Positions 2,928 to 44,643 of a stretch of 45,218 bases of DNA are shown here, piece after piece (positions within the stretch are counted from its first letter, which is position 1; every line of letters begins with the position of its first letter). The notes beneath the pieces were generated by a model. The model had not been told where the DNA came from. It searched no databases and worked only from the letters and a program-made list of their open reading frames with translations. The position numbers and the translations under genes were made by a program. The stretch lies in the NCBI GenBank assembly GCA_964422155.1, contig CAYQZZ010000011.1:1-45218 (forward strand), written 5' to 3'. Origin of the DNA: an uncultured Dehalococcoidaceae bacterium. GTDB lineage: Bacteria; Chloroflexota; Dehalococcoidia; Dehalococcoidales; RBG-16-60-22.

Positions 2928-3710
2928 TTGTTACTTACCAATAGAGTTGCTATTATTACCGGAGGTGCCAAAGGAATCGGGAGAGGTATTGCCCTTAGGT
3001 TTGCCCAGGAGGGTTGTGACGTCGTCGTCAATGCCTTGCACATCGAAGGCGCCAAGAAAGTTGCGGAGGAAGTCAAGGCTCTGGGGCGCAAGTCCCTGGC
3101 GATTGGGGCTGATGTTTCAAATAGCGCCCAGGTAAACGATATGGTGGCCCGGACGATTAAAGAATTCGGCAAAATTGATATCCTGGTCAATAACGCGGGC
3201 GGGATTTCTGCAGCGAAAGGAGGGGCAATTGAGAATACAACCGAAGAGGATTGGGATAGGATTGTCGACATTAACCTGAAAGGTCAGTTTTTATGCTGCC
3301 GGGCAGTCGTACCCTATATGAAAGAAAAAAAGTACGGTAAAATCGTAAATGTCTCTTCAATGGGCGCCGTCCATCCACCCGCACCCATCGTTCATTATCA
3401 TTCGGCTAAAGGAGGGGTCATTGCGTTAACAGCTAACCTGGCTTTTGAACTGGCTCGCTTTAATATCACGGTGAATGCTTTCCTGCCGGGTCCGATACGT
3501 TCAGAATTTTTTACCGGGATTCTGAAGGGAATGTCAGAGGAAGAAGGAAAAGCCTTTTTCACCATGCTGGATAAGAGAGTCCCGATGCAGAGAATGGGTA
3601 CGCCGGAGGACATGGCCGGAGTGGCTCTATTTCTGGCATCGGAGCTTTCATCTTACGTTACCGGTGAAGCAATATGCGCCGGCGGAGGATTACCTCTGAC
3701 ACCCGACTAG
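2928..3710 (+). CDS. SDR family oxidoreductase (FabG-like short-chain dehydrogenase)
   Basis: 260 aa. TGGAKGIGRGIA Rossmann motif, NNAG motif and YxxxK (YHSAK). TTG start with AGGAGG RBS 7 nt upstream. Paralog of 32378-33184. Confidence 0.9.
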   Translation: MLLTNRVAIITGGAKGIGRGIALRFAQEGCDVVVNALHIEGAKKVAEEVKALGRKSLAIGADVSNSAQVNDMVARTIKEFGKIDILVNNAGGISAAKGGAIENTTEEDWDRIVDINLKGQFLCCRAVVPYMKEKKYGKIVNVSSMGAVHPPAPIVHYHSAKGGVIALTANLAFELARFNITVNAFLPGPIRSEFFTGILKGMSEEEGKAFFTMLDKRVPMQRMGTPEDMAGVALFLASELSSYVTGEAICAGGGLPLTPD

Positions 3711-3796
3711 GCATTTTTACAATAAATATATGCAACTATTACTCATTTGATAAACACAGTCTTAAATTGTCGTAATATTTTTCCAAGGAGTGAAAC

Positions 3797-5632
3797 ATGG
3801 CTAGAGGCTATATGGGGAAGATACTAAACGTAGATTTATCCAGACTTGAGATAAGGGATGAGACACTGGATGAGAAGATACTCTATGATTTTATCGGGGG
3901 CTATGGCGTTGGCGCCAGGCTTCTTTACAGTCGGCAGAGGGGTGGCGTAGACCCCCTGGGACCGGAAAATATGCTTGGTTTTTTAACCGGCCCGCTCACC
4001 GGTACTGCCTCAACTTTTGCCGGCCGGTACACGGTGGTGGCAAAATCACCGATCACGGGCGGGTGGGGGGATTCCAACGGGGGGGGGGATTTCGCACCTC
4101 AGATAAAATTTGCCGGCTATGACGCTGTCTTCTTCACAGGGATAGCGGAAAAACCTGTCTATCTATTTATCGATAACGGTAAGGCTGAGCTAAGAGACGC
4201 CGGTCATTTATGGGGAAAGGACTGCTTTGTAACCGAAGATACGCTGCGGGCTGAACTGGGTGAAGATGTGGAAAGCGCCTGCATCGGACCGCCCGGTGAA
4301 AAACTTGCCCTCATTTCCTGCATTGTCACCAAGAGAGGGGCTGTTGCCGGGCGCTCGGGACTGGGGGCGGTGATGGGTTCTAAAAAGCTCAAGGCGGTGG
4401 CAGCCAGGGGGCAGATGGAAGTCCCTGTGGCCGACATCGAGGCGGTAAATCAATTAAGAAAAGAACATATCGCCGCAATGAGGAAATCTAGCGGTGGCAT
4501 GGAGACTTTAGAGGGATTTCACAAGTACGGCACCTCTCATGTTGCCGAAGGCTTTGCGCATAGCGGCAATACGCCGGTTAAAAACTGGGGCGGCGTCGGC
4601 GTTATCGACTTCCCCGATAGCTCCGGCCTCAGCGGTGATGCGGCTATCGCCAACCTTGAAAGGAGAACAGGCTGCTGGCACTGCCCGGTAGGCTGTGAAG
4701 GCAGGCTTAAAGAAGGAAAGGGCAAGTACAAATACCCGGCCGGCACCCGCCGTGTAGAATATGAGACCCAGGCTGCCTTTGGAACGATGTGTCTTAACAA
4801 TAATACGGAATCAATAAATATGATAAACCACTTATGTAACTGCTATGGACTGGATACTATCTCCGGTGGCACTACCATCGCCTTCGCCATCGAGTGCTAT
4901 GAGAATGGAATTATCACCAAGAAGGACACCGATGGGATTGAGCTTACCTGGGGCAATCATCAAGCCATCGTCGCCATGACGGAAAAAATGGTGAAGGGAG
5001 AAGGCTTCGGCGCCGTACTCGCCAATGGTGTTAAGGCAGCCGCCGAGAAAATCGGCAAGGGAGCCAAAAAGTACGCGGTACATATCGGCGGGCAGGAACT
5101 TGGCATGCATGACCCGAAGTTTTACAATTTCCCCGAAGCGACATCCGCGGCGCGCTATCAGATGGATGCAACCCCCGGGCGCCACACTCAAATGAATTTC
5201 GGGCCTGCCAGCTTCGCCATGCAACTTACCAATGCCACCGGTTGGTGCATGTTTAGCGACCTGGTTGGGGGTAACTCCGTCAAATACATCACGGGATTCA
5301 TGAAAGCTGTGACCGGTTGGGACCGTTCCGAGGATGAGCTGCTCAAGGCGGGGGAGAGGATTATCAATATGCGTCATGTCTTTAACCTGCGCGAAGGAAT
5401 CAATCCCCTGGAGTATAAGGTACACCCCAGGATAATCGGTCGCTCTCCACTTAAAGAGGGACCGCTGGCGGGCGCCACTGCGAGTATTGAAGCTCAGATA
5501 TACTGGGGTCTCGGCGCTCTGGACTGGAACCGGGTCACCACCAAACCCAGCCGGAAAAAGTTGCTGGAACTGGGCCTGGACGATGTCGCCAAAGAACTGT
5601 GGCCGGAGGGGCAATTCCCCGGACCGAGATAA
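3797..5632 (+). CDS. Aldehyde:ferredoxin oxidoreductase family (tungstopterin AOR)
   Basis: 611 aa, the typical AOR length. AOR N-terminal domain (ILNVDLS...IGGYGVGARLLY). Cys cluster CWHCPVGC matching the AOR 4Fe-4S ligand spacing. AAGGAG RBS. Confidence 0.85.
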   Translation: MARGYMGKILNVDLSRLEIRDETLDEKILYDFIGGYGVGARLLYSRQRGGVDPLGPENMLGFLTGPLTGTASTFAGRYTVVAKSPITGGWGDSNGGGDFAPQIKFAGYDAVFFTGIAEKPVYLFIDNGKAELRDAGHLWGKDCFVTEDTLRAELGEDVESACIGPPGEKLALISCIVTKRGAVAGRSGLGAVMGSKKLKAVAARGQMEVPVADIEAVNQLRKEHIAAMRKSSGGMETLEGFHKYGTSHVAEGFAHSGNTPVKNWGGVGVIDFPDSSGLSGDAAIANLERRTGCWHCPVGCEGRLKEGKGKYKYPAGTRRVEYETQAAFGTMCLNNNTESINMINHLCNCYGLDTISGGTTIAFAIECYENGIITKKDTDGIELTWGNHQAIVAMTEKMVKGEGFGAVLANGVKAAAEKIGKGAKKYAVHIGGQELGMHDPKFYNFPEATSAARYQMDATPGRHTQMNFGPASFAMQLTNATGWCMFSDLVGGNSVKYITGFMKAVTGWDRSEDELLKAGERIINMRHVFNLREGINPLEYKVHPRIIGRSPLKEGPLAGATASIEAQIYWGLGALDWNRVTTKPSRKKLLELGLDDVAKELWPEGQFPGPR

Positions 5633-6596: not shown

Positions 6597-7304
6597 ATGG
6601 ACTACACAATAGATAAAAAGTATTACGTAATGCGGAAACCTGAACTCCTCAGGAAATTCGACGAAGAGTCGAAAAACTGGAGTTCGGTCGTTGTCAGGCA
6701 ATACGGGCAAAAGTTTGCAGATACGATATTGCATGAAGCCCGTAAGGAGTTCGAGGCTTTAATTCCTCAAATACCTTATATCGGCGGGGATGAAAACCGT
6801 CGGACCGATTCGCTGGTGGAGTCGATAAGATACCTGGCATTCTATCAGGCCATGAAAAAACTAAGCAAAACGGCGGAGGAAACGGGCAAAATACTCTACG
6901 ACGCCATCCTGACGCAGGTTGATAAACAACGGTCGGAAATTCCGCCATCGGAAAGGCAAACCCCGGAGAAGTATATGGAGAAGCGTAGAAAAGGGGCGGA
7001 TGTATCTCAAGAACGGCGTTATCCTGGAGACTACGTATATAAATTTATTGTCGGTGACGGCAAGGAGTTTGACTACGGCTATGACTATACTGAATGCGCC
7101 ACCCTGAAATTCTATCATGCCCGCGGTGCCGACGAGTTCATGCCTTTTTACTGCTATCTCGATTTTCCCATATGTAGAGTACGAGAGATTGGACTAACCA
7201 GGACGATGACGATATCTGAAGGTCAAAAGAAATGCAACCACCGTTTCAAGATAGGCAGAGAAACGAAGCTAGAGTGGCCGCCGCCATTTTTAAAGAGAAA
7301 ATGA
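6597..7304 (+). CDS. Hypothetical protein (conserved DUF-like, possibly L-2-amino-thiazoline-4-carboxylate hydrolase-like family; unverified)
   Basis: 235-aa ORF inside the plus-strand operon, 59 nt after the upstream gene. Coding-like composition. Family assignment is from memory only. Confidence 0.55.
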   Translation: MDYTIDKKYYVMRKPELLRKFDEESKNWSSVVVRQYGQKFADTILHEARKEFEALIPQIPYIGGDENRRTDSLVESIRYLAFYQAMKKLSKTAEETGKILYDAILTQVDKQRSEIPPSERQTPEKYMEKRRKGADVSQERRYPGDYVYKFIVGDGKEFDYGYDYTECATLKFYHARGADEFMPFYCYLDFPICRVREIGLTRTMTISEGQKKCNHRFKIGRETKLEWPPPFLKRK

Positions 7305-7345
7305 TGTCTCTTCAAACTATCTGAAGGAACAGGGGGCGCGAGCAT

Positions 7346-8725
7346 ATGACTGCGATAAATGATTTTGTGAAAAACTTTACCAGTACCAGGTATGAAGATT
7401 TACCCGGTGACGCCGTAGAAGCGGCTAAAAAGGAAGTCCTGGACAGCCTGGCGACAGCCCTGGGCGGTTCGTCAAAGGCCGGGGTCGGGGAGCTGGTGGA
7501 CATGGTCAAGGAGTGGGGAGGCAGTGAGCAAAGCACTATCATCGCCTACGGGATTAAGTGCCCGGCACCCAATGCGGCTCAGGTCAACGGGACGATGATA
7601 CATGCCCTGGACTATGACGATGGTCACCAGGTAGCCCTAGTTCATATCGGGTGTGTGGCCGTGTCAACCTCTTTTGCGGTTGCTGAACGGATGGGAAAGG
7701 TAAGCGGTAAAGAATTAATCGCCGCTATCGCCCTTGGCGGTGACTTCATGGCCAGGCTGGGACTGGCGAGCCGACCGGGCACCAGCGCTCTAGGATCCGG
7801 CTGGCACCCTACAACTTTATTCGGTTTCCTGGGCGCCGCCGCCATGGCCGGGAGGATAATGGGGCTTGACGAAGAAAAGATGATTAATGCGATAGGTCTC
7901 GCTTACCATCAATGCGGGGGAGCCGGTTCCGGCGTGGGCGATGGCGCACTGGCGAAAAGGATGGGGCCGGGACTGGCGGCGAAGGCTGGCATCACGGCTG
8001 CCCTGATGGCCGAAAGGGGGATTACCGGTGAGAGGAACTCTCTCGAAGGGAGAACCGGGCTCTTCAACACATATATGGGAGGAGATTACGATGTTAAAAT
8101 ACTAACCGCGGATTTGGGGAAAAGATTTGAGGGAGTAAACATAGGGGATAAGCCGTATCCCTGCTGCGGGCTCACCCACGCATGTATAGACGCAGCACTC
8201 GCTTTGATAGCCAGACATGATATTAAAGTTGACCAGATACGAGATATTACAGTGTATGGTGGACAGTCGGTATACGGTTTATGCCAGCCCCCGGAGGTAA
8301 AGCGTGCCCCGCGGACGATTATCGATGCGCAGTTCAGCGTACCCTGGGTGGTGGCTACGGCTCTGGTCAAGGGTAAGGTCACCGTGGACGACTTTACCGA
8401 TGAAGCTATTAAAAGGCAGGAGATTCTAAAAGTTGCCGGGAAAGTAACCGGCAGGCTTGAACCGGCGATGAGCCGGCATGGCGTCGGGCCGGGCGGGGTA
8501 ATAATTACGATGAAAGACGGTACGGAGTACATGGAGGAGGTGGAACACTGCCTGGGCAGCGTGGAAAGGCCGATGACCTTTGAAGACTGCGCTGAAAAAT
8601 TCCGGGAGTGCGCCGCCTGCTCTATAAAACCGCTGTCCGCCGACACGGTCGATAAGGTTATCGAAATGGTCGCGCGGCTCGAGAAATTAAATGACGCCAA
8701 CGAAATCATCAGACTGCTCTGTTAA
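7346..8725 (+). CDS. MmgE/PrpD family protein (2-methylcitrate dehydratase-like)
   Basis: 459 aa. N-terminal region typical of MmgE/PrpD (FVKNFTSTRYEDLPGDAVEAAKKEVLDSLATALGGS). Length fits the family. Confidence 0.85.
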   Translation: MTAINDFVKNFTSTRYEDLPGDAVEAAKKEVLDSLATALGGSSKAGVGELVDMVKEWGGSEQSTIIAYGIKCPAPNAAQVNGTMIHALDYDDGHQVALVHIGCVAVSTSFAVAERMGKVSGKELIAAIALGGDFMARLGLASRPGTSALGSGWHPTTLFGFLGAAAMAGRIMGLDEEKMINAIGLAYHQCGGAGSGVGDGALAKRMGPGLAAKAGITAALMAERGITGERNSLEGRTGLFNTYMGGDYDVKILTADLGKRFEGVNIGDKPYPCCGLTHACIDAALALIARHDIKVDQIRDITVYGGQSVYGLCQPPEVKRAPRTIIDAQFSVPWVVATALVKGKVTVDDFTDEAIKRQEILKVAGKVTGRLEPAMSRHGVGPGGVIITMKDGTEYMEEVEHCLGSVERPMTFEDCAEKFRECAACSIKPLSADTVDKVIEMVARLEKLNDANEIIRLLC

Positions 8726-8750
8726 TATTTAAGCACGAGAGGAGGATGCA

Positions 8751-9449
8751 ATGGTCACTAAAAAGGAAAGAAATATAGAGGTTAAAGAAATTCTATATTT
8801 CGAAAAACCGGCGGGCAGGTCAAACACCAACAAGATGTTAGAGTTTATCACCGGGAAGATAGAAACCCTGGGACTACATCAAGTGATGATAGCCTGGTCC
8901 AGCGGGTATACACTGAGGAAATTCCTTGAAGCGACTAAAAATCTAAAGCTCAAACTCGATATTACGACGGTGACCAATCCCAAGGGAGGGACCATCGGCG
9001 GAAGGAATGTGTCTATCGACGATGAAACCCGGGAGGAACTCGAGGAAAAAGGTATAAAAGTCTGCTATCTCAATGACGACATGAGACTCGGCGAACCCAT
9101 GTCTCCATCCCCCGGGCAGAAGCTCATGAGAGACATGCTGCTTCCCTGGCTGCCGGCACATATTGACCCTTTAAGTCTCGATGTTGGGTGGGACCTGTCC
9201 CTCTTGCTCATAATAAGCCAGGGATTCCGTGTCTGTGTGGGGTGTCTGGCGCTTGCCGTAAAACATGGCCTAATCCCCGAGGGTGAGAGGGTGCTGTGTC
9301 TTGCCGGGTCAGCTACGGCGTGCGTCATGCAGGCCAGCGCATCCCCCCGAACGTGCTATGTTAAAGAAATTCTCAGCTATGAACGGAACTCTGATTGGTC
9401 ACAGATGAACCAATCAAGTTTGAAAAGAATGGTAGCCATAACAAAATAG
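8751..9449 (+). CDS. Hypothetical protein, last gene of the AOR/PrpD operon
   Basis: 232 aa. GAGGAGG RBS. 25 nt downstream of the PrpD-like gene. No family recognised. Confidence 0.6.
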   Translation: MVTKKERNIEVKEILYFEKPAGRSNTNKMLEFITGKIETLGLHQVMIAWSSGYTLRKFLEATKNLKLKLDITTVTNPKGGTIGGRNVSIDDETREELEEKGIKVCYLNDDMRLGEPMSPSPGQKLMRDMLLPWLPAHIDPLSLDVGWDLSLLLIISQGFRVCVGCLALAVKHGLIPEGERVLCLAGSATACVMQASASPRTCYVKEILSYERNSDWSQMNQSSLKRMVAITK

Positions 9450-9844
9450 TTTATTCCTTAAATAACACCGCCGGGATGTAGTCAACCACCAGGGGAGCTG
9501 GCTCCGTTAAAAAATAATCTGACCATTCCCATCCTCATCCCCGACTACGCCCTTTGCGCCGCCACAATAATACGGCATCTGGTTTGGTACCGGCATTACC
9601 GAGTTGACCAAAGCGTATTCCACCCATAAATTCAGCCAAAGTGGCATAATGTAACAACATACTAGATTGTGCAGTCAGGCTAAACAACATGCAAGAATGT
9701 TAAATTACAGCCTCTAATGAATTTCTGTTCATTAATCCACTAAAGGACTCTTTCTCGCCCTATCCAGCTACTAATCGGATAATAAAGACACTTTTGTTTA
9801 TAGTGCTATTCCTTAATCTAAAGAAGACTCGTGCATTGACAAAT

Positions 9845-19950: not shown

Positions 19951-20922
19951 ATGAAAGATTTTGTTGGTAAAGTATGTTTTATAACCGGAGGCGCTTCTGG
20001 TGCCGGGTTCGGTCAGGCAAAGGTGTTTTCAGAGGCAGGCTGCAAGATTGCGATTGCAGATATTCGTCAGGACCATCTGGACGAGGCAAAGGCGTACTTC
20101 CGGGAGAAAAAGGTTAAAGTCCATGCGATAAGACTGGACATTACGGACCGCCAGGCATACGCGGCGGCGGCAGATGAGGTAGAAGAGGTGTTCGGTAGCC
20201 CTCCGCAGCTTTTATTCAATACGGCGGGTGTCAATGCCTTTGGTCCGGCTGAAGCCTCGACATTTGAAGATTATGATTGGGTAATGGGTGTTTGTCTTGG
20301 CGGCGTCATCAACGGTATGGTGACATTCGTGCCGCGTATGATAAAAGCCGGCAAGGGAGGCTATATCGCCACGACTTCCTCGATGGGAGGTTTTATGGGA
20401 ACATCCGGGTGTGCTCCATACTCGGCTGCCAAAGCCGCAGTTAATAATCTCATGGAGAGTTATTATCAGGCGCTCAAACCGTATGGTATAGGTGTATCTG
20501 TCCTGTGCCCGGGTGGTATCAAGTCAAATATTGCCGAGGCATCATTTACACGGCCAAAGCATCTGGCAAACACCGGGTATAATATTAATAAAAAGACAAT
20601 TGAATTTATGCGTTACCATTACTCTTTTGGAATAGACCCTGTGGAGCTGGCATACATACTTAAGAAGGGGATTGAAAACGAGCAACTCTTTATTATCCCG
20701 GTCCCGGACCCGGAGAGAATGTTGAGGGACAATTTTGAGCGGATTATCAATTATGCCACTCCTGAAGGCATGCAGAGACAGGAAGAGCTGATGAAGAAGC
20801 GCATGGAAGAAATGAGGAAACGCATGGGCAACAGTCCCATGATGGAGGGTGCAGTCGAAGCCGGATGGGGGAAAGCCAGGAAGGATATAACGTGGGTCAA
20901 AGAACACAGGGGCCCCTTTTAA
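19951..20922 (+). CDS. SDR family oxidoreductase with about 90-aa C-terminal extension (SDR-A, paired with selenoprotein A)
   Basis: 323 aa. ITGGASGAGFG motif and YSAAK catalytic motif. GGAGGA RBS. Paralog of 24568-25515. Confidence 0.9.
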   Translation: MKDFVGKVCFITGGASGAGFGQAKVFSEAGCKIAIADIRQDHLDEAKAYFREKKVKVHAIRLDITDRQAYAAAADEVEEVFGSPPQLLFNTAGVNAFGPAEASTFEDYDWVMGVCLGGVINGMVTFVPRMIKAGKGGYIATTSSMGGFMGTSGCAPYSAAKAAVNNLMESYYQALKPYGIGVSVLCPGGIKSNIAEASFTRPKHLANTGYNINKKTIEFMRYHYSFGIDPVELAYILKKGIENEQLFIIPVPDPERMLRDNFERIINYATPEGMQRQEELMKKRMEEMRKRMGNSPMMEGAVEAGWGKARKDITWVKEHRGPF

Positions 20923-20967: not shown

Positions 20968-22731
20968 ATGTCAAGTGAAGTACGTTTTTCAGTAATAAGC
21001 CCCGAAGCTGGAATCCTGAAGGGTACGGGTGGATTTGGACCTCCCGGTATGGGCGGACCTCCGGGTAGACCTCCCGGTGGACCTCCGCCGGGTATGGGCG
21101 GACCGGCACTGTCTTCACCATCTTTTGCCAAGCGGCTGGACACACTGGAGAACAAAACTGTGTATCTGGTGGATATCGGTTTCGGGGGCGGCTATAATTT
21201 CATGCTGCAATTGCAGAAGTGGTTTACCGAAAATATGCCGTCCGTCACCGCGATAGTGAAGCGGAAACCGGGGAATGTGTTCATGGACGATAAGAATGAC
21301 CTCTGGGAGGAAATTAAAGCAAAGGGCCATGCCGTTGTCCTCGGCGTAGCCGGCTGACCGGGCTGTATTTCAGCGGTCGCTGGAGGCAGCACGAAACTTG
21401 AACAGAACTATGGTATCCCGGTTGCTCCTGTCTCAAGTTACACGATGGAAAGCGTTGCCAAGGATAACCCGAGAGCCGCTTCTTTACCTTTCATATATAC
21501 GCCACTTCCTGTGATAGGTATGTCTCCTGAAGTCCTCGACAGGTATATCGCAGGCAACGACCCGGATACCGGTAAACCTGTCATCAATGAAATAATCGAC
21601 GTATTGACAAAACCGGTAAGCAAAACGAAGCTGGCGCCTGAATCTCCCAAAACCGTAAAAGTCGGCGCTCCCCAGGAATTCCTTGAACCGGATACTGAAG
21701 ACAACTTGCAGCGTCTATTTTATGAAAGAGGGTGGACGGACGGATTACCCATCATACTTCCTACCGAGGAGCGGGTGAAGAAAATGCTCGCAGGCACCGG
21801 CGCTTCTCCGGACGAAGTGGTTGGTGAAACATTCCAGATGGATACCGGAAAACTTGTCAAGTACACTGTTGCCAATATTGCGGTTATGGCGGTCATGGCC
21901 GGCGCTAGGCCGGAACATTTTCCCGTGATACTGGCTGTTGCGTCCACCAGACAATCGTCGCTTATGCCCTCTACAACAGCCTTTTCAGCCATGCTTTTGG
22001 TGAATGGGCCAATTCGCAATGAGATTGGTATGAACTCCGGTATTGGCGCATTCAGTCCGGTAAATATGGCAAATTCGGTAATCGGCAGGGCATGGACGTT
22101 GATGAGCATTTGCTGGGGATATGCTAAGCCTAAAAAGACGTTGTGGAGTTCACAGGGGAGTAATCTTATCTATAATAATATGTGCGTTGCGGAGAATGAG
22201 GAGAGGAGCGTCTGGACGCCTTTTCATGTTGATAAGGGTTTCAAGGCTGAAGAGAGTGTGGTCAGTATCTTCCGGGGATGGGCTGTTATCAACAGTACCG
22301 GAGCAGCCTCCAACCGGACACTGGGGGAGGAACTGAATCTCGAGCTAGCCGTGATCCCGCCGCTTGATTCCGCGGCTACTATAATAATGGACCCGCTTGT
22401 TGCCAGGAATCTGAAGGAGAACGAGGGCTTTAGTACCAAGCAGGATTACTGCCGCTGGTTATCTAAGAACATCAAAATGCCGGCAGGACAATACTGGAAA
22501 ACAGATTATATAGATATGCTGGTGGCCTCTGAAGCATACAAGGGAATAGAGCCTTACGCTTCCTGGAAAAAGCTCCCCGATGACGCGCTGATAGCTCCCT
22601 ATCATAAACCGGACAATATTAATATCATTGTCGTAGGCGGAGAGACAAGTCCCTTATGGAAAGCTTCGGATTATCGCTACACAGCCAGCGTATCTATTGA
22701 TAAGTGGCGAGCGAATAAGTTGGATAATTAA
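20968..22731 (+). CDS. Candidate selenoprotein A (about 587 aa; in-frame TGA at 21355-21357 read as Sec in G-V-A-G-U-P-G-C). N-terminal Pro/Gly-rich linker plus Rossmann-like domain, C-terminal about 450-aa domain of unknown function
   Basis: ORFs 20968-21357 and 21445-22731 are in the same frame, separated only by TGA. The 87 nt between them keeps protein-level conservation with the paralog (E..YG[IV]P.AP[VI]). The paralog has TGA at the aligned position. A GU-loop hairpin lies 5 nt downstream. GGAGGA RBS at 20968. Confidence 0.6.
21362..21390 (+). promoter_or_regulatory. Putative bacterial SECIS element for selenoprotein A
   Basis: Lower stem GCUG(21362-65)/CAGC(21387-90), upper stem CAGC(21371-74)/GCUG(21379-82), apical loop GGUC(21375-78). 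The loop G is 18 nt from the UGA. This is the same loop as the E. coli fdhF SECIS. Confidence 0.4.
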
Positions 22732-22842: not shown

Positions 22843-24534
22843 ATGAAGAAGAACGGAAAAATAACAGTATTAGACCCGAGAGGCCAGCCTACCGGCATCT
22901 TCGGGCGGCGGCTTGACCCCGATTCGCCTCCCTTTGCTATTCACGACCCCGTAAACCAGCCGAGAGATACGGCTGAAGCCTTGGGCGCACTTAAAATGGC
23001 GCCGCGCCTCGATAGACTGGAAGGCAAGACCGTTTACCTGGTTGATACGGGATTTGCCGGCGGCGCGGATTTTATGGCGGAGGTCCAGGACTGGTTTACC
23101 CGTCACCGACCGGACGTGAAGACCGAGCTGCGCCACAAGAAGACCAGCATGTTCACCGACGAGCCGGAGCTCTGGGCTGAAATCAAGAAAAATGGCGACG
23201 CGGTCGTCTTCGGCGTGGGCGGCTGAGACGGCTGTTCGGCGAGTATCGCCGAGTTTGCCCGGACGATGGAGAGCGACTACGGGGTGCCGACAGCTCCTAT
23301 TGTCACCGCCCGTTTCGCGGACTATGTCCAGCGCGACGGCCGGAGCCACGGCATGAACCTCCGCTGGAGCTTTCCCCCCTACCCTGTAGGCTTCATCCCC
23401 CGCGAGACACTGCATGGCTATGTCGAGGGCAATGACCCTGTTTCCGGCGTACCCCTCATGGAGGAGGTTATTTCCGCCCTCACCCAGCCGCTGACGGACG
23501 CAGAGAAAACCTACAAGGCGGAAAAGAGACCGAAACGGCCGCGCCTGCTCGAACCGGATACCGAGATGAACCTCCACCGCCTCTTTTTGGAAAACGGCTG
23601 GACTGACGGTCTCCCTATCGTCCTGCCCACCGAAGAGCGCGTAGCGGAGATGCTTACCGGCACCGGCCGCGACCCCCAGGAATTCGTCGGCATGATGTCC
23701 GTGACAACCCATGAGGAGAGGCTCCAGTATGCGGTGGAGAGAGTCGCAGTCATCGCTGTCATGGCCGGGGCCAGGCCGGAGCACTTCCCGGTTATCCTGG
23801 CGTTAGGCGCCTCGGGGCGGCCTTCCATGCCCAGCTCGACGACTTCCTTCGCGAGCATGATGGTGGTAAACGGTCCCATCCGCGACCAGATAGGGATGAA
23901 CAGCGGCCTTGGCGCCTTAAGCCCGGTCAATTACGCCAACTCCGTTATAGGCAGGGCATGGACGCTGATGAGCATTAACTTCGGGGATGTCCGGCCTGGA
24001 GCCACATTCACTGCCAGCACCGGAACCACAATCAATTACAACAACATGTGCTACGCCGAGAACGAAGAGAACAGAGTCTGGCAGCCTTTCCACGTGCGTA
24101 AAGGCTATAAGGCAGGTGAAAGCACGGTGAGCTTTTTCCGAGGCTGGAGTGTCCTCGGCTTCAATACTGGCCCAGTCCAGCGGATGCTGGAAGTCATGAA
24201 AAGTATCGGCGGCCCCTTCGGCGGCTCGTTTACTTTCGTTATCGACCCCCTCGTGGCAAAGAGCCTGAAAAAGGAAGGCTATGATGACCCGTTCAAGCTG
24301 AGTGAGTGGCTCGTGAACCAGACGAATGCCCGTTTCAAGCGCCCGGAGATGGTGAACTTCGTCGTCGTCGGCGGTGAAATGAACCCGATGTGGGTTACGA
24401 CTGATTTCTCTTATTTCCAGACGGTCGTTATAGACCCGTGGATTCCTAAAGCCGGCATCAAGAAAGACGCCAGACCGCTCCGGATGCCGGTGGCATTAGC
24501 CTGTAAGGATGGTTCCTGCGGCATCTCGCATTAG
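22843..24534 (+). CDS. Candidate selenoprotein B (about 563 aa; in-frame TGA at 23224-23226 read as Sec in G-V-G-G-U-D-G-C), paralog of selenoprotein A but lacking the Pro/Gly linker
   Basis: ORFs 22843-23226 and 23266-24534 share a frame across a single TGA. The N-terminal domain aligns with A (LEGKTVYLVDTGFAGG / LENKTVYLVDIGFGGG; VVFGVGGU / VVLGVAGU). The C-terminal domain aligns along its length (GWTDGLPI[IV]LPTEERV, AVMAGARPEHFPVILA, NMC.AENEE..VW). AAGGAGAG RBS. Confidence 0.6.
23235..23253 (+). promoter_or_regulatory. Putative bacterial SECIS element for selenoprotein B
   Basis: Stem UUCGGCG(23235-41)/CGCCGAG(23247-53) with apical loop AGUAU. The loop starts 16 nt after the UGA and contains GU. 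Confidence 0.35.
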
Positions 24535-24567: not shown

Positions 24568-25515
24568 ATGAAGGACCTAAAAGGAAAAGTAGCTTTTATT
24601 ACCGGCGGCGCCAGCGGCATCGGGCTGGGGATTGCCAAGGCCTGCGCCAAATACGGCATGAAGGTGGTCATCGTTGATATGCGCCAGGACGCTCTGGATG
24701 AAGCGACGGCTTATTTCAAAAAGGCTAAACTGCCTGTCCATCCCATCAATCTGAACGTTACCGACCGCGTCGCTTATGTTAAAGCCGCCGATGAGGCGGA
24801 AAAAGTCTTCGGCAAGATACACGTGCTGGTCAATAACGCCGGCGTAGGCTCGGGCGGTCCGCTGGAGAGATTAACTTACAAAGATTGGGATTACAGCATG
24901 GGCGTCAACGTAGGCGGCGTTATCAACGGTGTGATGACGATTGTACCGCGCATCCTGAAGCACGGGGAGGGCGGCCACATCGTCGCCACTTCCTCGACCT
25001 GCGGCCTTATGGGCTCGAGCAACTTCTCTATCTACTGCACGACCAAGTACGCCGTGGCAGGCTTGATGGAGTGCCTCGCTTCCGAGCTTCAGAATAAAGG
25101 GATTGGGGTTTCGATACTGGTTCCCGGGCCGACGATGGGCAATCTTGGTTTATCCTCTTTTGTCAATCGCCCCGCTCATCTAAGGAACGAGGGAGAAACC
25201 TGGCCTCCTAAAATGCCTCCGCCCCCGAGGGACGGTCAGCCGCCCCGTCGGCCGCCGGGGGAAATGAAGGATGTATTTATGGACCCGGCAGAGACCGGCG
25301 AGCGCGTATTGCGGGCTATCAAGAATAACGACCTTTTCATCATCACCCATACGGAATGGAAGGCGGGTTTCAACGCCCGCAACGAAGCGATAATGCGCGC
25401 CTGCCCGGATGAGCCGCGGAATGAAAAGCGCTGGGAAGTAATTCAGCATTTCGGGGATATAATATATAATGATATTTATGATAAACAGAAACAGATAGGC
25501 CCGCCTGACTGGTAA
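24568..25515 (+). CDS. SDR family oxidoreductase with Pro-rich C-terminal extension (SDR-B, paired with selenoprotein B)
   Basis: ITGGASGIGLG motif and YCTTK catalytic motif. AGGAAA RBS before the ATG at 24568; the ORF-track start at 24535 is an upstream extension. Paralog of 19951-20922. Confidence 0.9.
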   Translation: MKDLKGKVAFITGGASGIGLGIAKACAKYGMKVVIVDMRQDALDEATAYFKKAKLPVHPINLNVTDRVAYVKAADEAEKVFGKIHVLVNNAGVGSGGPLERLTYKDWDYSMGVNVGGVINGVMTIVPRILKHGEGGHIVATSSTCGLMGSSNFSIYCTTKYAVAGLMECLASELQNKGIGVSILVPGPTMGNLGLSSFVNRPAHLRNEGETWPPKMPPPPRDGQPPRRPPGEMKDVFMDPAETGERVLRAIKNNDLFIITHTEWKAGFNARNEAIMRACPDEPRNEKRWEVIQHFGDIIYNDIYDKQKQIGPPDW

Positions 25516-40584: not shown

Positions 40585-41028
40585 ATGAAACTTTCTACCA
40601 GGACACGCTACGGGACAAGGGCTCTCCTGGAACTGGCTCTTCATGAGGGGGAGGGGCCGGTTTTTCTGAAAGACATCGCCAGGCAGCAGCAGATTTCGTT
40701 GCCTTACCTGGAGCATCTGGTCACTCCTTTGATTTCCGCCGGCATTATACGAAGTACCAAGGGACCTAAAGGTGGGGTTACACTGGCCAGGAAACCGGAG
40801 GAGATAAAGCTGAGTGAAATTACGCAACTTCTCGAAGGCTCGGTGACCCCCGTTGAGTGTATCGAGCATCCAGAGGTTTGCAGCCGTTCTGAACTCTGCG
40901 TCACTCGTGAAGTCTGGAGTAAACTCAAAGACGCGATGGATAGTGTCCTGGAGTCCACGACCCTGCAGGACCTGGTGGAAAGGCAGAAAAAGAAAGGCCA
41001 TCCCGAAACATCGATGTATTACATATAA
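40585..41028 (+). CDS. Rrf2 family transcriptional regulator (IscR/CymR-like, Fe-S type)
   Basis: N-terminal w[22 protein letters not shown]. Three-Cys motif C-x6-C-x5-C ([16 protein letters not shown]). 13 nt upstream of cysK. Confidence 0.85.
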
Positions 41029-41041
41029 AGGGGGCAGGGAG

Positions 41042-42052
41042 ATGGTGGTATCGATTCAGGAAATAGAGTATATAAATTATAAGACGATTAAAATACCGAA
41101 GCTGACCAGGGGTATCGCCCGGGACTGCTCTGAGCTGATAGGGAATACGCCGCTCGTCAGGCTGAACCATATAACAGATGGGGCCGGGGCGGAGGTGGTT
41201 GCCAAGCTCGAGTCCTTTAATCCCATCCATAGCGTCAAAGACAGGATAGGCGTGGCGATGATTGTCGACGCCGAGGAAAAGGGGCGGATTAAAAAAGGCA
41301 CGGTAATCGTCGAGCCTACCAGCGGCAATACCGGCATCGCCCTGGCATTTGTCTGCGCGGCTAAGGGGTACAGGCTCATTCTTACCATGCCTGATACGAT
41401 GTCGCTGGAGAGAAGACAGCTTCTTTCTATTTTCGGAGCCGAGCTGGTACTGACCCCGGGTTCAGAGGGGATGACGGGGGCCATCAGAAAAGCCGAGCAG
41501 CTTGTGAAGGAGAACCGTAACTATTATATGCCGCAGCAGTTTAAAAACCCGGCCAATCCTGAAATACACCGCCTGACAACCGCCGAGGAAATCTGGAGGG
41601 ACACGGGCGGCAGGGTGGATATCCTGGTCAGCGGCGTGGGCACCGGCGGAACGATTACCGGCGTTGCCGAAGTACTTAAAGCCAGGAAACCGGGATTCAA
41701 ATCTATAGCCGTTGAGCCGGCTGGCTCTCCGGTACTTTCGGGAGGGAAACCGGGGGCGCATAAAATTCAGGGGATTGGCGCCGGCTTCGTCCCGGATGTC
41801 CTCAGGGCGGAACTGATTGACGAAATTATCACCGTGAGCAATGAGGATGCAGGAGCCACGGCGCGAAGGCTGGCAAAAGAGGAAGGGATACTGGCGGGTA
41901 TATCGTCGGGAGCCGCCGCCTGGGCAGCCTTGAAAGTTGCCGGCAGGCCGGAAAATACGGGCAAACTTATTGTCGTTATCCTGCCGGACACTGGTGAACG
42001 TTACCTGTCCACATGGCTTTTTCAGGAGCCGTCCACGTCCTCTCTAAAATAA
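41042..42052 (+). CDS. cysK: Cysteine synthase (PLP-dependent O-acetylserine sulfhydrylase)
   Basis: Start MVVSIQEIE... PLP-lysine region (SVKDR) and glycine-rich loop GTGGT. The ORF-track start at 40853 is an extension overlapping the Rrf2 gene. Confidence 0.85.
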
Positions 42053-42265
42053 TGCAGAATTACATTAAGGAATTTATATGAAAATAGATGTAATCCCAGG
42101 TGATACTTTTTTAAAGGACGAGAATGATAGCGCTTTCTGGACTTTATCCCCCGGGGCGCCCATTACGGGTATTGGACGGGAGGTGATAAACCTCTTATGG
42201 ACAATGCGTTGCCCGTAAGGGCTTTCAGGACGGAATAAAATAAATCCAGAAAGGTGAAATTAATA

Positions 42266-43468
42266 ATGAAAACAATAGCTGAAATCAACGAACGTATACG
42301 TCAAGGCCAGGCAGTGGTGGTGACTGCCGAAGAAATAATAGATATCGTTAAAGAGAAAGGAATTCAGAAGGCGGCCAGGGAGGTTGATGTGGTGACCACG
42401 GGGACTTTCGGTCCTATGTGTTCCTCCGGCGCCTATCTTAACGTCGGGCACACGAAACCGCGCATCAAGCTCGGCGGCGGCAGGGTTTATCTCAACGATA
42501 TACCGGCCTATACCGGCTTCGCCGCCGTGGATATCTACATCGGATGCACGGCGCTGCCGGATGATGACCCGAGGAACCGCGTACACCCCGGCGACTTCAA
42601 ATATGGTGGGGGCCATGTCATCGAAGAGCTTGTCGCCGGCAGGGATGTCCGGCTGGTCGCTGCCGCCTATGGCACGGATTGCTATCCGAAAAAGAAGCTG
42701 GAGACCCTGATAAATCTCAGGGACGTCAACGAGGCTGTCCTTTTCAATCCCAGGAATGCCTACCAGAACTACAATGTGGCGGTAAATTTATCGAATAAGA
42801 CAATTTATACTTATATGGGCGTCTTGAAGCCCAATCTGGGGAATGCCAACTACTGCAGTGCCGGGCAGCTCTCCCCGCTCCTCAACGACCCCCTTTACAA
42901 GACCATCGGTATCGGTACGAAGATATTCCTGGGTGGGGGCGTCGGCTACGTCGCCTGGCAGGGCACCCAGCATAACCCGGGCGTGCCGCGGGGGGAAAAT
43001 GGGGTTCCGCGGAAACCTGCTGGTACGCTGGCGGTCATCGGCGACTTAAAGCAGATGAAGTCGGCCTGGCTCCGCGGCATCAGTATGCAGGGCTATGGTG
43101 CCAGCATGATTGTCGGCATCGGCGTGCCTGTCCCCATTCTTTCCGAGGAAATTCTGAAGTATACCACGGTGACGGACGCTGATATTGTCGCGCCAATCGT
43201 CGATTATTCCGAGGCATATCCCCAGAGAAAACCGGACGTCCTGGGAGAGGTCAGCTATGCCCGGCTTAAAACCGGCAAGATAGAAGTGCGGGGCAAGCAG
43301 GTGCCTACCTCCTCCCTGTCCAGCTACCCCGGGGCAGTTGAGATTGCCCAGATTCTAAAAGAGTGGATACAAAAGGGAGAATTTACCCTGACCGAGCCGG
43401 TGGCGCCGCTACCGGGTTTAGAATCTGGCATTGCTGTCAAGAGCCTTGAGGAACGTAATATAGATTAA
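42266..43468 (+). CDS. DUF39/COG1900 family protein (homocysteine-biosynthesis sulfur-incorporation enzyme family)
   Basis: Start MKTIAEINERIRQG with AAGGTGA RBS. About 400 aa without CBS domains. The family call is from memory of COG1900 N-termini. Confidence 0.65.
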   Translation: MKTIAEINERIRQGQAVVVTAEEIIDIVKEKGIQKAAREVDVVTTGTFGPMCSSGAYLNVGHTKPRIKLGGGRVYLNDIPAYTGFAAVDIYIGCTALPDDDPRNRVHPGDFKYGGGHVIEELVAGRDVRLVAAAYGTDCYPKKKLETLINLRDVNEAVLFNPRNAYQNYNVAVNLSNKTIYTYMGVLKPNLGNANYCSAGQLSPLLNDPLYKTIGIGTKIFLGGGVGYVAWQGTQHNPGVPRGENGVPRKPAGTLAVIGDLKQMKSAWLRGISMQGYGASMIVGIGVPVPILSEEILKYTTVTDADIVAPIVDYSEAYPQRKPDVLGEVSYARLKTGKIEVRGKQVPTSSLSSYPGAVEIAQILKEWIQKGEFTLTEPVAPLPGLESGIAVKSLEERNID

Positions 43469-43578
43469 CTCTTGTCAACTGGAAAAGTATAAGTGTCCCG
43501 GGGCAGGGTAGCCTCGAAAACACAAAGCCCTGTCCCGGGCGGTGTTATTTCATACCTTGAAAAGTAAGAGGAGGAACG

Positions 43579-44643
43579 ATGGCAGCTAACGAAATGCCCG
43601 AAATCGGGAAAATCTCCCCGGAAATCTTTAACGAGTTGATTTTTCCTCGTCTTGGAGCCAGGAGCGATAGCATTCTGGTCGGCCCCCAGCATGGCGTGGA
43701 TGTGGGTATCGTGGAGATAGGGGGCAAGGCGGTATCGTTTACCACCGACCCCGTTTTCATCGTGCCAGAATACGGCTGGGAGAGGGCTGCCTGGTTTGCC
43801 CTTCACATCATCGCTTCCGACTCCGTCACCAGTGGACTCAAGCCGAAGCTCTTAAGTATTGACCTGAATTTCCCGATGGAAATGACCAAAAAACAGCTGG
43901 AGATAGTCTGGGATATCATTCACCGGGAGTGCGAGAAACTGGGGATAACCGTTATTACCGGCCATACCGCCCGGTATGAGAACTGTCATTACCCCATGGT
44001 CGGTGGGGCTACTATCGTGGGCATCGGCGAGCTTGATGAATACGTTACTCCGGCGTTCTGCCGAGCCGGCGATAAAATAATCATTACCAAGGGGCCAGCC
44101 ATCGAGGCTACCGGCATTTTTGCGGCCATGTTCCCATATATTATCGAGAAGGAGTTTGGGGCGGAGTTCAGCCGGAGGGCTCAGCAGATATTCTATAAAA
44201 TGTCGGTTGTTGAGGATGCTTTGACGGCGGTGGGTGTCGGCGTCCGGGAGAGTGGAGTCACTGCCATGCACGACGCCACCGAATGCGGGGTGTGGGGCGG
44301 ACTGTATGAGCTGGCGCAGGCCGCCGGTCTGGGAGTCAGGATAGAGAAGGATAAGATAATTGTGGAAGAGAGCGTCGCCGGGGTATGCCGGCTGTTCGAT
44401 ATCGACCCTTATACCTCAATCAGCGAGGGCACATTGATAATCGCCTGCAAGGAACATAAAACACAGGATATCGTGAAGGCGCTGGCCAGAAAGAGTATAA
44501 AATCATCTGTAGTCGGCGAGCTGACCAAGCCGGAAAAGGGAATGGTTTTAGTTGAAAAGGGCAGGGAGAAAAAGCTGGAACACCCTATCGTCGACCCGTT
44601 CTGGAGGGCTTTCTACGGCGCTCTTGAAAAATATAAGTCCTAG
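43579..44643 (+). CDS. AIR synthase-related (PurM-like superfamily) protein
   Basis: 354 aa. PurM-like N-domain (DSILVGPQHGVDVGIVEIGGKAVSFTTDP) and C-domain. GAGGAGG RBS. Confidence 0.75.
   Translation: MAANEMPEIGKISPEIFNELIFPRLGARSDSILVGPQHGVDVGIVEIGGKAVSFTTDPVFIVPEYGWERAAWFALHIIASDSVTSGLKPKLLSIDLNFPMEMTKKQLEIVWDIIHRECEKLGITVITGHTARYENCHYPMVGGATIVGIGELDEYVTPAFCRAGDKIIITKGPAIEATGIFAAMFPYIIEKEFGAEFSRRAQQIFYKMSVVEDALTAVGVGVRESGVTAMHDATECGVWGGLYELAQAAGLGVRIEKDKIIVEESVAGVCRLFDIDPYTSISEGTLIIACKEHKTQDIVKALARKSIKSSVVGELTKPEKGMVLVEKGREKKLEHPIVDPFWRAFYGALEKYKS

What the first reader, a model, noticed from the sequence alone, without database searches (positions are those of the whole stretch)
20968..22731. 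In-frame TGA in a conserved G-V-A-G-[TGA]-P-G-C motif: probable selenocysteine in a large protein of unknown function
The ORF track splits this locus into a 129-aa ORF and a 428-aa ORF, but both share one frame with a single TGA (21355-21357) between them. The 87 nt after the TGA translate to a sequence (PGCISAVAGGSTKLEQNYGIPVAPV...) that aligns with the paralog's equivalent stretch. That rules out genuine non-coding DNA. The TGA follows a beta-strand-like AVVLGVAG and precedes x-G-C, a U-x-x-C redox pair at a helix N-terminus. The fused product is about 587 aa: a Pro/Gly linker, an 80-aa Rossmann-like N-domain and a 450-aa C-domain I cannot assign to any family. Other genes in the window stop at TGA, so this is not a genome-wide recoding. 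Automated annotation would miss or split this gene.
Basis: partly seen in the sequence, partly recalled or inferred. Interest (0 to 1): 0.9.

Follow-up and report, generated by a model that had tools for sequence, protein, structure and literature searches.

The report
Two tandem UGSC-family selenoprotein fusion genes
The stop-like TGA is almost certainly read as selenocysteine in two neighbouring genes of a known but functionally uncharacterised selenoprotein family (UGSC), here fused to a large conserved domain that matches no solved structure or curated family.

Summary
ORFs 20968-21357 and 21445-22731 share one frame with a single TGA (21355-21357). The tandem paralog 22843-24534 has a TGA at the same aligned position (23224-23226).

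Evidence for selenocysteine:
- Both N-domains match Pfam PF24696 (UGSC family) above its threshold.
- Of 80 related genes from different species, 66 keep TGA at that column, 11 have Cys and 2 have Leu.
- The full-length homolog P0196 reads GVAG-C-DGC.
- A hairpin with compensatory base changes follows the TGA only in the TGA-bearing genes.
- Six other genes in the window stop at TGA, so the code is standard.

In an AlphaFold model the Sec-equivalent Cys caps a helix in a flavodoxin-like domain. The ~350-aa C-domain has no Pfam, NCBIfam or PDB match.

In Paracoccus, Variovorax and haloarchaea a standalone UGSC gene sits next to a standalone C-domain gene. A thioredoxin-reductase-like gene often accompanies them, and sometimes an SDR does too. 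I infer a U-x-x-C redox module that supplies electrons to an unknown reductase domain.

The family is already known, and a UGSC fusion was reported in 2008. This is a new member of a known kind. Sec machinery could not be checked on this contig.

The parts
20968..22731 (+). Selenoprotein gene 1: UGSC domain plus C-domain fusion, 587 aa with U at residue 130
   Evidence: One frame with a single TGA. PF24696 hit. Orthologs keep the TGA or have Cys.
21355..21357 (+). In-frame TGA read as selenocysteine (GVAG-U-PGC)
   Evidence: Aligned with Cys in P0196, P0256 and P0299 (CGSC).
21362..21390 (+). SECIS-like hairpin of gene 1. Core stem 21369-21374 / 21379-21384, apical loop GGUC 21375-21378, lower stem 21362-21366 / 21386-21390.
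   Evidence: Fold. Core stem 83% paired across 54 genes, 6 of 6 pairs with compensatory changes, covariation 0.425 against 0.174 for shuffles. The hairpin is absent from Cys/Leu homologs.
21121..21537 (+). UGSC-family domain of gene 1 (residues 52-190), spanning the TGA
   Evidence: Pfam PF24696 35.1 bits against GA 25. NCBIfam NF041046 29.5 bits, below its cut-off of 125.
21670..22728 (+). Conserved C-domain of gene 1 (about 353 aa), no assigned family
22843..24534 (+). Selenoprotein gene 2: tandem paralog, 563 aa with U at residue 128
   Evidence: P0196 is a 62% identical full-length Cys form.
23224..23226 (+). In-frame TGA of gene 2 (GVGG-U-DGC)
23235..23253 (+). SECIS-like hairpin of gene 2. 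Stem 23235-23242 / 23246-23253, apical loop GUA 23243-23245.
   Evidence: Fold. 90% of cells paired in 17 genes of this clade, 4 pairs with compensatory changes, covariation 0.187 against 0.066.
19951..20922 (+). SDR oxidoreductase upstream, same strand, 45 nt from gene 1
   Evidence: adh_short, nearest the PRK06194 model (below its cut-off). The same SDR family neighbours the fusion gene in 20 of 82 loci.
24568..25515 (+). Second SDR oxidoreductase downstream, same strand, 47% identical to the first

Best explanation
Both genes encode selenoproteins of the UGSC family, fused to a conserved C-terminal domain.

**Step 1: recoding (shown computationally).** The in-frame UGA is read as selenocysteine. 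A hairpin 11-14 nt downstream, with apical loop GGUC in gene 1 and GUA in gene 2, has the position and shape of a bacterial SECIS, the element that recruits SelB and Sec-tRNA.

**Step 2: structure (from the model).** Sec sits at the N-cap of a helix in a flavodoxin-like domain, three residues before a conserved Cys. This gives a U-x-x-C selenol/thiol pair that can cycle with a selenenylsulfide.

**Step 3: function (inferred from gene context and domain swaps).** This redox module serves the attached ~350-aa C-domain, an enzyme-like domain of unknown fold and substrate. The whole protein most likely acts as a reductase. In other lineages the pair is probably re-reduced by an adjacent thioredoxin-reductase-like flavoprotein using NAD(P)H. 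In this organism the reductant is not identified. The two flanking SDR oxidoreductases probably act in the same pathway.
For: **Sec.**
- PF24696 hits above threshold.
- TGA in 66 of 80 species loci across many phyla, Cys in 11, with the downstream Cys kept.
- Full-length Cys homolog P0196.
- TGA is otherwise a stop in this window.

**SECIS.**
- TGA genes against Cys/Leu genes at the same site: median 6 against 3 contiguous pairs (p=1.2e-6) and MFE -16.1 against -8.4 kcal/mol (p=7e-6).
- Compensatory changes in all 6 core pairs for the gene-1 register and in 4 of 8 pairs for the gene-2 register.

**Structure.**
- AlphaFold pLDDT 90.2. The Sec-equivalent Cys161 lies between strand 153-157 and helix 162-179.

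**Functional link between the two domains.**
- Standalone UGSC genes sit directly next to standalone C-domain genes in Paracoccus ferrooxidans (AN-TGA-GSC, overlapping stop/start), Variovorax (CGSC), Natrinema and Haloterrigena (CGSC).
- An AhpC/TSA-redoxin domain replaces the UGSC domain on the same C-domain in P0390.

**Reductant.**
- A TrxB-like gene lies next to the fusion gene, in most cases immediately downstream, in 23 of 82 loci.
- trxB, an SDR, the C-domain gene and a UGSC gene share one operon in Variovorax.
- A NAD(P)/FAD oxidoreductase and an SDR follow the pair in Haloterrigena.

**Lineage.** Dehalococcoidia are listed among the selenoprotein-richest bacteria, with 46-49 selenoproteins per genome (PMC13326102).
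Against: - No selA, selB, selD or tRNA-Sec was found on this 45-kb contig. The rest of the genome could not be examined.
- Folding either hairpin on its own is not significantly better than shuffled sequence (z -0.65 and -0.17). The support comes from comparison across genes.
- Many distant full-length family members have no Cys or Sec at the motif (for example P0245, P0252, P0259, P0262, P0301). The C-domain can therefore work without a redox-active N-domain in some lineages.
- No TrxB-like gene is adjacent in this window.
- The C-domain has no conserved Cys and no known fold, so 'reductase' rests on context only.
- No member of the family has been studied experimentally.
Confidence: 0.72

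Rival explanations
1. Sec is incorporated, but the U-x-x-C motif is not an electron relay for the C-domain. Either Sec is the catalytic nucleophile that attacks the substrate directly, as in the substrate-binding selenoproteins of glycine and proline reductase, or the N-domain is a redox sensor or peroxidase independent of the C-domain.
For: The C-domain has no conserved Cys to accept a dithiol exchange. Redox-dead N-domains coexist with intact C-domains. UGSC also occurs as a free ~150-210-aa protein.
Against: UGSC and the C-domain are tightly coupled or fused in bacteria and archaea. A redoxin domain can substitute for UGSC. A thioredoxin-reductase-like partner recurs. These points fit either variant of a reductive mechanism but do not fit an independent role.
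Confidence: 0.2
2. The TGA is a true stop. The locus holds two separate genes, a 129-aa and a 428-aa product, or a decayed pseudogene.
For: Gene callers in public databases call it this way. Split UGSC and C-domain genes do exist in other organisms.
Against: The natural split elsewhere lies after the whole UGSC domain, not at the U. Sequence is conserved from the first codon after the TGA. The TGA cuts the Pfam domain in half. The TGA is conserved in 66 species while 11 have Cys. The downstream ATG at 21445 would leave 87 nt of conserved coding sequence unused.
Confidence: 0.03
3. The TGA is an assembly or sequencing error for TGC/TGT (Cys), or TGA is reassigned genome-wide to Trp or Gly.
For: Cys forms of the same protein exist.
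Against: The same TGA occurs in both paralogs and in 66 independent assemblies. The TGA genes, and not the Cys genes, carry the downstream hairpin. Six Pfam-supported genes in the window terminate at TGA. No homolog has Trp or Gly at the column.
Confidence: 0.02

Closest known systems
UGSC-containing selenoprotein family (Zhang & Gladyshev 2008, PMC2398784; Pfam PF24696; NCBIfam NF041046), including the reported 'UGSC/Unknown_1' fusion
   Same: The N-domain matches PF24696. The U-x-x-C motif aligns with UGSC/CGSC. Sec and Cys interchange at the site. The 2008 paper already reports a UGSC domain fused to a conserved unknown domain. NCBI names close relatives 'UGSC family (seleno)protein'.
   Different: The motif here is U-P-G-C and U-D-G-C rather than U-G-S-C. 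The protein is 560-590 aa rather than about 150 aa. It scores below the NF041046 equivalog cut-off. The modelled fold is flavodoxin-like, not the thioredoxin-like fold suggested in 2008. I could not confirm that 'Unknown_1' is this C-domain, because the figure is held only as an image.
Thioredoxin-system-dependent selenoprotein reductases of Stickland fermentation (glycine reductase GrdA/GrdB, D-proline reductase PrdB); comparison from my own knowledge of these systems
   Same: A Sec/Cys pair (UxxC or CxxU) serves as the redox or nucleophilic centre. Thioredoxin reductase genes are encoded alongside. The reaction is reductive chemistry on a small organic substrate.
   Different: No sequence relationship was found: the Pfam scan found no family other than UGSC, hence no GRDB match. 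There is no evidence of a pyruvoyl subunit. The catalytic domain here is of a different, unassigned fold.
Enzymes fused to their own thiol-disulfide donor module, such as peroxiredoxin-glutaredoxin or methionine sulfoxide reductase-thioredoxin fusions; from my own knowledge
   Same: A small redox module is covalently attached to the domain it serves. The same partners occur as separate adjacent genes in other genomes. A different redox module can be swapped in, as with the AhpC/TSA-redoxin domain in P0390.
   Different: The donor module here is flavodoxin-like and uses Sec. The acceptor domain is uncharacterised.

Membership tests
UGSC family (Pfam PF24696) | Sequence match above the Pfam gathering score | tested here: met
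   35.1 bits (gene 1, residues 52-190) and 72.1 bits (gene 2, residues 34-192) against GA 25.
UGSC family (seleno)protein, NCBIfam NF041046 (equivalog) | Score at or above the curated cut-off of 125 bits for the ~147-aa protein | tested here: not met
   29.5 and 47.9 bits. The window proteins are divergent, fused relatives rather than equivalogs of the standalone protein.
UGSC family | U/C-x-x-C motif at the family's conserved position | tested here: met
   U-P-G-C and U-D-G-C align with CGSC of P0299, which scores 119 bits to PF24696. Standalone members read CGSC or U-GSC.
UGSC family | Small standalone protein of about 150 aa | tested here: not met
   The window proteins are 587 and 563 aa with a ~350-aa extra domain.
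Bacterial selenoprotein gene | In-frame UGA with conserved coding sequence on both sides | tested here: met
Bacterial selenoprotein gene | Cys-containing homologs aligned at the UGA | tested here: met
   P0196 and 11 of 80 species loci with TGC/TGT.
Bacterial selenoprotein gene | SECIS hairpin just downstream of the UGA with G/U in the apical loop | tested here: met
   The loop GGUC or GU(A/G/C) starts 16-17 nt after the UGA. Covariation supports the stem. The hairpin is absent in Cys forms. The loop-distance criterion of 16-37 nt is recalled from the bSECISearch description, not re-read here.
Bacterial selenoprotein gene | selA, selB, selD and tRNA-Sec in the same genome | not testable with these tools
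   None on the contig; the AIRS-family gene 43579-44643 is not SelD. There is only lineage-level support: Dehalococcoidia with 46-49 selenoproteins (PMC13326102). selB lies 3.3 kb from the homologous pair in Paracoccus.
Bacterial selenoprotein gene | Selenium actually incorporated | not testable with these tools
   This needs 75Se labelling or mass spectrometry.
Thioredoxin-fold oxidoreductases (the fold proposed for UGSC in 2008) | Thioredoxin-like fold of the Sec-bearing domain | tested here: not met
Glycine/proline reductase selenoproteins (GrdB/PrdB, Pfam GRDB) | Sequence match to the family model | tested here: not met
   The Pfam scan returned no family other than UGSC at E<=0.01.

The most novel reading that the evidence does not exclude
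The abundant but uncharacterised UGSC selenoprotein is the dedicated electron-delivering subunit, or here a domain, of a new-fold reductase. Together with a thioredoxin-reductase-like flavoprotein and often an SDR, it would form a previously unrecognised NAD(P)H-dependent reductive pathway for an unknown small organic substrate, spread from haloarchaea to Proteobacteria and Dehalococcoidia.
Probability: 0.4. Interest if true: 0.65.

Novelty: new member of a known kind. Interest (0 to 1): 0.4.

Why it matters

This locus and its relatives show that the UGSC module is either fused to, or encoded next to, one particular conserved ~350-aa protein. That protein has no curated family and no solved-structure match, and a thioredoxin-reductase-like gene often accompanies the pair. 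This gives a concrete three- or four-gene unit to test.

The unit also occurs in cultivable organisms: Neorhizobium galegae, Variovorax, Paracoccus and Haloterrigena.

In practical terms, public gene models for thousands of these proteins are truncated at the TGA, and they could be corrected.

Tried and rejected
- **Read-through protein.** I used the post-TGA part and the natural Cys homolog P0196 instead.
- **Structure library.** afdb50 was not available.
- **SelD candidate.** I considered the AIRS-family gene 43579-44643 as SelD and rejected it. It scores far below the SelD cut-offs and sits beside a homocysteine-biosynthesis gene.
- **Third TGA candidate.** The minus-strand pair at 40925-42043 joined by a TGA is antisense to cysteine synthase.
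- **RNA searches.** A tRNA-Sec search of the window and 60 related loci, and an Rfam search of the window, found nothing relevant.
- **'Unknown_1'.** I tried to confirm that the 2008 domain is this C-domain. The figure panel is an image and the sequence file was cut, with no motif match.
- **Genome scan.** Broad alignments A1 and A2 were too diverse for the scan. A3 worked.

Full report
**1. The observation**

ORFs 20968-21357 (129 aa) and 21445-22731 (428 aa) lie in one frame and are separated by a single TGA at 21355-21357. Read-through gives a 587-aa product with ...AVVLGVAG-U-PGCISAV....

The next gene, 22843-24534, is a paralog. It has a single in-frame TGA at 23224-23226, at the same aligned position (...VVFGVGG-U-DGCSAS...). 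The two post-TGA parts are 42% identical, starting from the second residue after the TGA.

A six-frame scan for long open stretches joined by one TGA found only these two credible cases. A minus-strand candidate at 40925-42043 is antisense to a cysteine synthase gene. Six of 31 likely genes in the window end at TGA, so the genetic code is standard.

**2. Family of the N-domain**

With Cys substituted for U, both proteins match Pfam PF24696 (UGSC family): 35.1 bits over residues 52-190 and 72.1 bits over residues 34-192, against a threshold of 25. They also match NCBIfam NF041046, 'UGSC family (seleno)protein', at 29.5 and 47.9 bits. That is below its equivalog cut-off of 125.

The TGA therefore falls in the middle of a recognised domain, and that domain's defining feature is a U/C-x-x-C motif. 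The remaining ~350 aa match nothing in Pfam or NCBIfam.

**3. Sec/Cys signature across species**

- Homology searches returned more than 5,800 relatives. Of the closest 240, all but one are 358-479 aa and start just after the TGA. They are truncated gene calls, mostly from Dehalococcoidales and other Chloroflexota MAGs. Some that NCBI names 'UGSC family (seleno)protein' are truncated in the same way.
- The window is itself a whole 45,218-bp NCBI contig.
- P0196, a 599-aa Desulfobacteraceae protein 62% identical to gene 2, is full length and reads GVAG-C-DGC.
- A scan of one genome per species found at least 532 species with a relative. Among the best 80 loci, the column aligned to U130 is TGA in 66, TGC or TGT in 11 and Leu in 2; one locus did not align there.
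- The TGA forms come from Dehalococcoidales, Acidobacteriota, Actinomycetota, Thermodesulfobacteriota, Rokubacteria, Binatia, Verrucomicrobiia, Latescibacterota and Proteobacteria. The Cys forms are mostly Alphaproteobacteria. The downstream Cys is nearly always kept. Motif variants are G-U-PGC, G-U-DGC, H-U-STC, L-U-STC/SSC and T-U-PGC.

This distribution excludes an assembly error, a pseudogene and a real gene boundary.

**4. The recoding signal**

A hairpin follows each TGA. Taken one sequence at a time, it is not significantly more stable than shuffled sequence. The comparison across genes is what carries the argument.

| Measure | 71 TGA genes | 12 Cys/Leu genes | p |
|---|---|---|---|
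| Contiguous pairs at the site (median) | 6 | 3 | 1.2e-6 |
| MFE, nt 4-45 (kcal/mol) | -16.1 | -8.4 | 7e-6 |

The apical loop is GGUC in 38 of 71 TGA genes.

| Register | Genes | Stem columns | Cells paired | Pairs with compensatory change | Covariation score | Shuffle mean | Best slid register |
|---|---|---|---|---|---|---|---|
| Gene 1 (GGUC loop) | 54 | 15-20 / 25-30 | 83% | 6 of 6 | 0.425 | 0.174 (0 of 500 reach it) | 0.165 |
| Gene 2 (GUA loop) | 17 | 12-19 / 23-30 | 90% | 4 of 8 | 0.187 | 0.066 | 0.090 |

In window coordinates:
- Gene 1: core stem 21369-21374 / 21379-21384, loop 21375-21378.
- Gene 2: stem 23235-23242 / 23246-23253, loop 23243-23245.

The position and the G/U-containing loop are those of bacterial SECIS elements. 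That comparison rests on my own knowledge of the fdhF element and of the bSECISearch criteria.

**5. Structure**

AlphaFold on the Cys homolog P0196 with a 90-sequence alignment gave pLDDT 90.2 and pTM 0.88. The Sec-equivalent Cys161 sits between strand 153-157 and helix 162-179, and the second Cys lies in the first helical turn.

Conserved C-domain motifs are GWTDGLPIxLPTEERV, VAxNAVMAGAxPE, VNGPIRxEIGMNxGxGA...AN..IGRA, AENEExSPWxPFHV, VVVGG and a C-terminal SIDxWR. None contains a conserved Cys.

**6. Context and domain partners**

In the window the order is SDR, fusion 1, fusion 2, SDR, all on the plus strand with gaps of 33-111 nt. The two SDRs are 47% identical.

Across 82 loci:
- The same SDR family is a neighbour in 20.
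- A ~314-aa thioredoxin-reductase-like flavoprotein (Pyr_redox_2, CASC motif) lies next to the fusion gene in 23, in most cases immediately downstream. These belong mainly to the H/L-[U/C]-STC clade.

Annotated replicons show the split version of the same unit:

| Organism | Arrangement |
|---|---|
| Paracoccus ferrooxidans | Standalone UGSC gene with AN-TGA-GSC overlaps the start of a standalone C-domain gene; selB lies 3.3 kb away |
| Variovorax sp. SRS16 | trxB, TctC binding protein, SDR, C-domain gene, UGSC gene (CGSC) |
| Natrinema caseinilyticum | 'UGSC family (seleno)protein' (CGSC), then C-domain gene, DUF6282 gene and an NAD(P)-binding protein |
| Haloterrigena turkmenica | UGSC-like gene (CGSC), C-domain gene, NAD(P)/FAD oxidoreductase, SDR |

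In P0390 an AhpC/TSA-redoxin domain replaces the UGSC domain on the same C-domain.

**7. Interpretation**

Shown computationally: these are Sec-decoding genes with a SECIS supported by covariation, and the UGSC module and the C-domain form a conserved functional pair.

Inferred: the U-x-x-C pair supplies electrons, or a selenolate nucleophile, to a reaction carried out in the C-domain. A thioredoxin-reductase-like enzyme re-reduces it where one is encoded nearby. The SDRs act in the same pathway. The substrate is unknown. Neighbouring transporters (ABC, TctC, TRAP) point only to an imported small organic compound.

Cautions:
- Many distant family members have lost both redox residues.
- No TrxB-like gene is adjacent in this window.
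- Sec machinery could not be checked for this genome. There is lineage-level support, since Dehalococcoidia are listed with 46-49 selenoproteins (PMC13326102).

**8. Novelty**

The UGSC-containing selenoprotein family has been known from metagenomes since at least 2007-2008. A 'UGSC/Unknown_1' fusion was described then (PMC2398784). Reviews up to 2026 still list the family as uncharacterised (PMC13188914).

The window genes are therefore new members of a known kind, in a fused and tandemly duplicated form. Three points may go beyond what I found in the literature searched:
- the gene-order and fusion evidence tying UGSC to one specific partner protein and to a TrxB-like reductase;
- the flavodoxin-like rather than thioredoxin-like model of the Sec-bearing domain;
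- the lack of any solved-structure match for the partner domain.

I could not establish whether 'Unknown_1' is this same domain.

Noticed in passing
window 21025-21105 and 25204-25260: Gene 1 has a Pro/Gly-rich low-complexity stretch near its N-terminus (GGFGPPGMGGPPGRPPGGPPPGMGGP) that most homologs lack. The downstream SDR carries a Pro-rich insert (PPKMPPPPRDGQPPRRPPG). The L001 ortholog has a similar Pro/Gly stretch.
   Followed up: no
window 40853-44643: Cysteine synthase, an HcyBio (homocysteine biosynthesis) gene and an AIR-synthase-related gene lie in a row. The last resembles SelD or HypE only weakly and is not SelD.
   Followed up: partly
L087 (Paracoccus ferrooxidans pFER4) 3357-5014 and 8329-8570: A standalone UGSC gene is annotated as two small hypothetical proteins because of its TGA. 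It overlaps the start of a standalone C-domain gene, and selB lies 3.3 kb downstream.
   Followed up: partly
P0390 (530 aa): The same C-domain is fused to an AhpC/TSA-redoxin domain instead of a UGSC domain.
   Followed up: partly
P0294, P0312, P0315, P0331, P0356 (709-741 aa): These long relatives match the C-domain in two separate stretches and have no Pfam domain. They may carry a duplicated C-domain.
   Followed up: no
L009, L020, L058 (OY970253.1, Acidobacteriota chromosome): One genome carries at least three copies of the fusion gene from different motif clades, all with TGA.
   Followed up: no
L066 (Candidatus Nitrosocosmicus MAG): A TGA-form gene with a bacterial-type hairpin inside the coding region appears in an archaeal bin. 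This looks more like bin contamination or a transferred gene than archaeal Sec decoding.
   Followed up: no
L001 11605-12212 and 12910-13573: Other genes near the ortholog on the 1.56-Mb contig are split into short adjacent ORFs (a flavodoxin_2-like gene and a cyclase). These could be further selenoproteins or long-read frameshifts.
   Followed up: no
L082 (Neorhizobium galegae pNgVX) 6962-9616: The Cys-form fusion gene is annotated as two overlapping hypothetical proteins, apparently because of a frameshift. It is followed by about 1 kb with no listed gene, at the position where relatives carry the TrxB-like gene. Malonyl-CoA decarboxylase and synthase genes lie upstream.
   Followed up: partly
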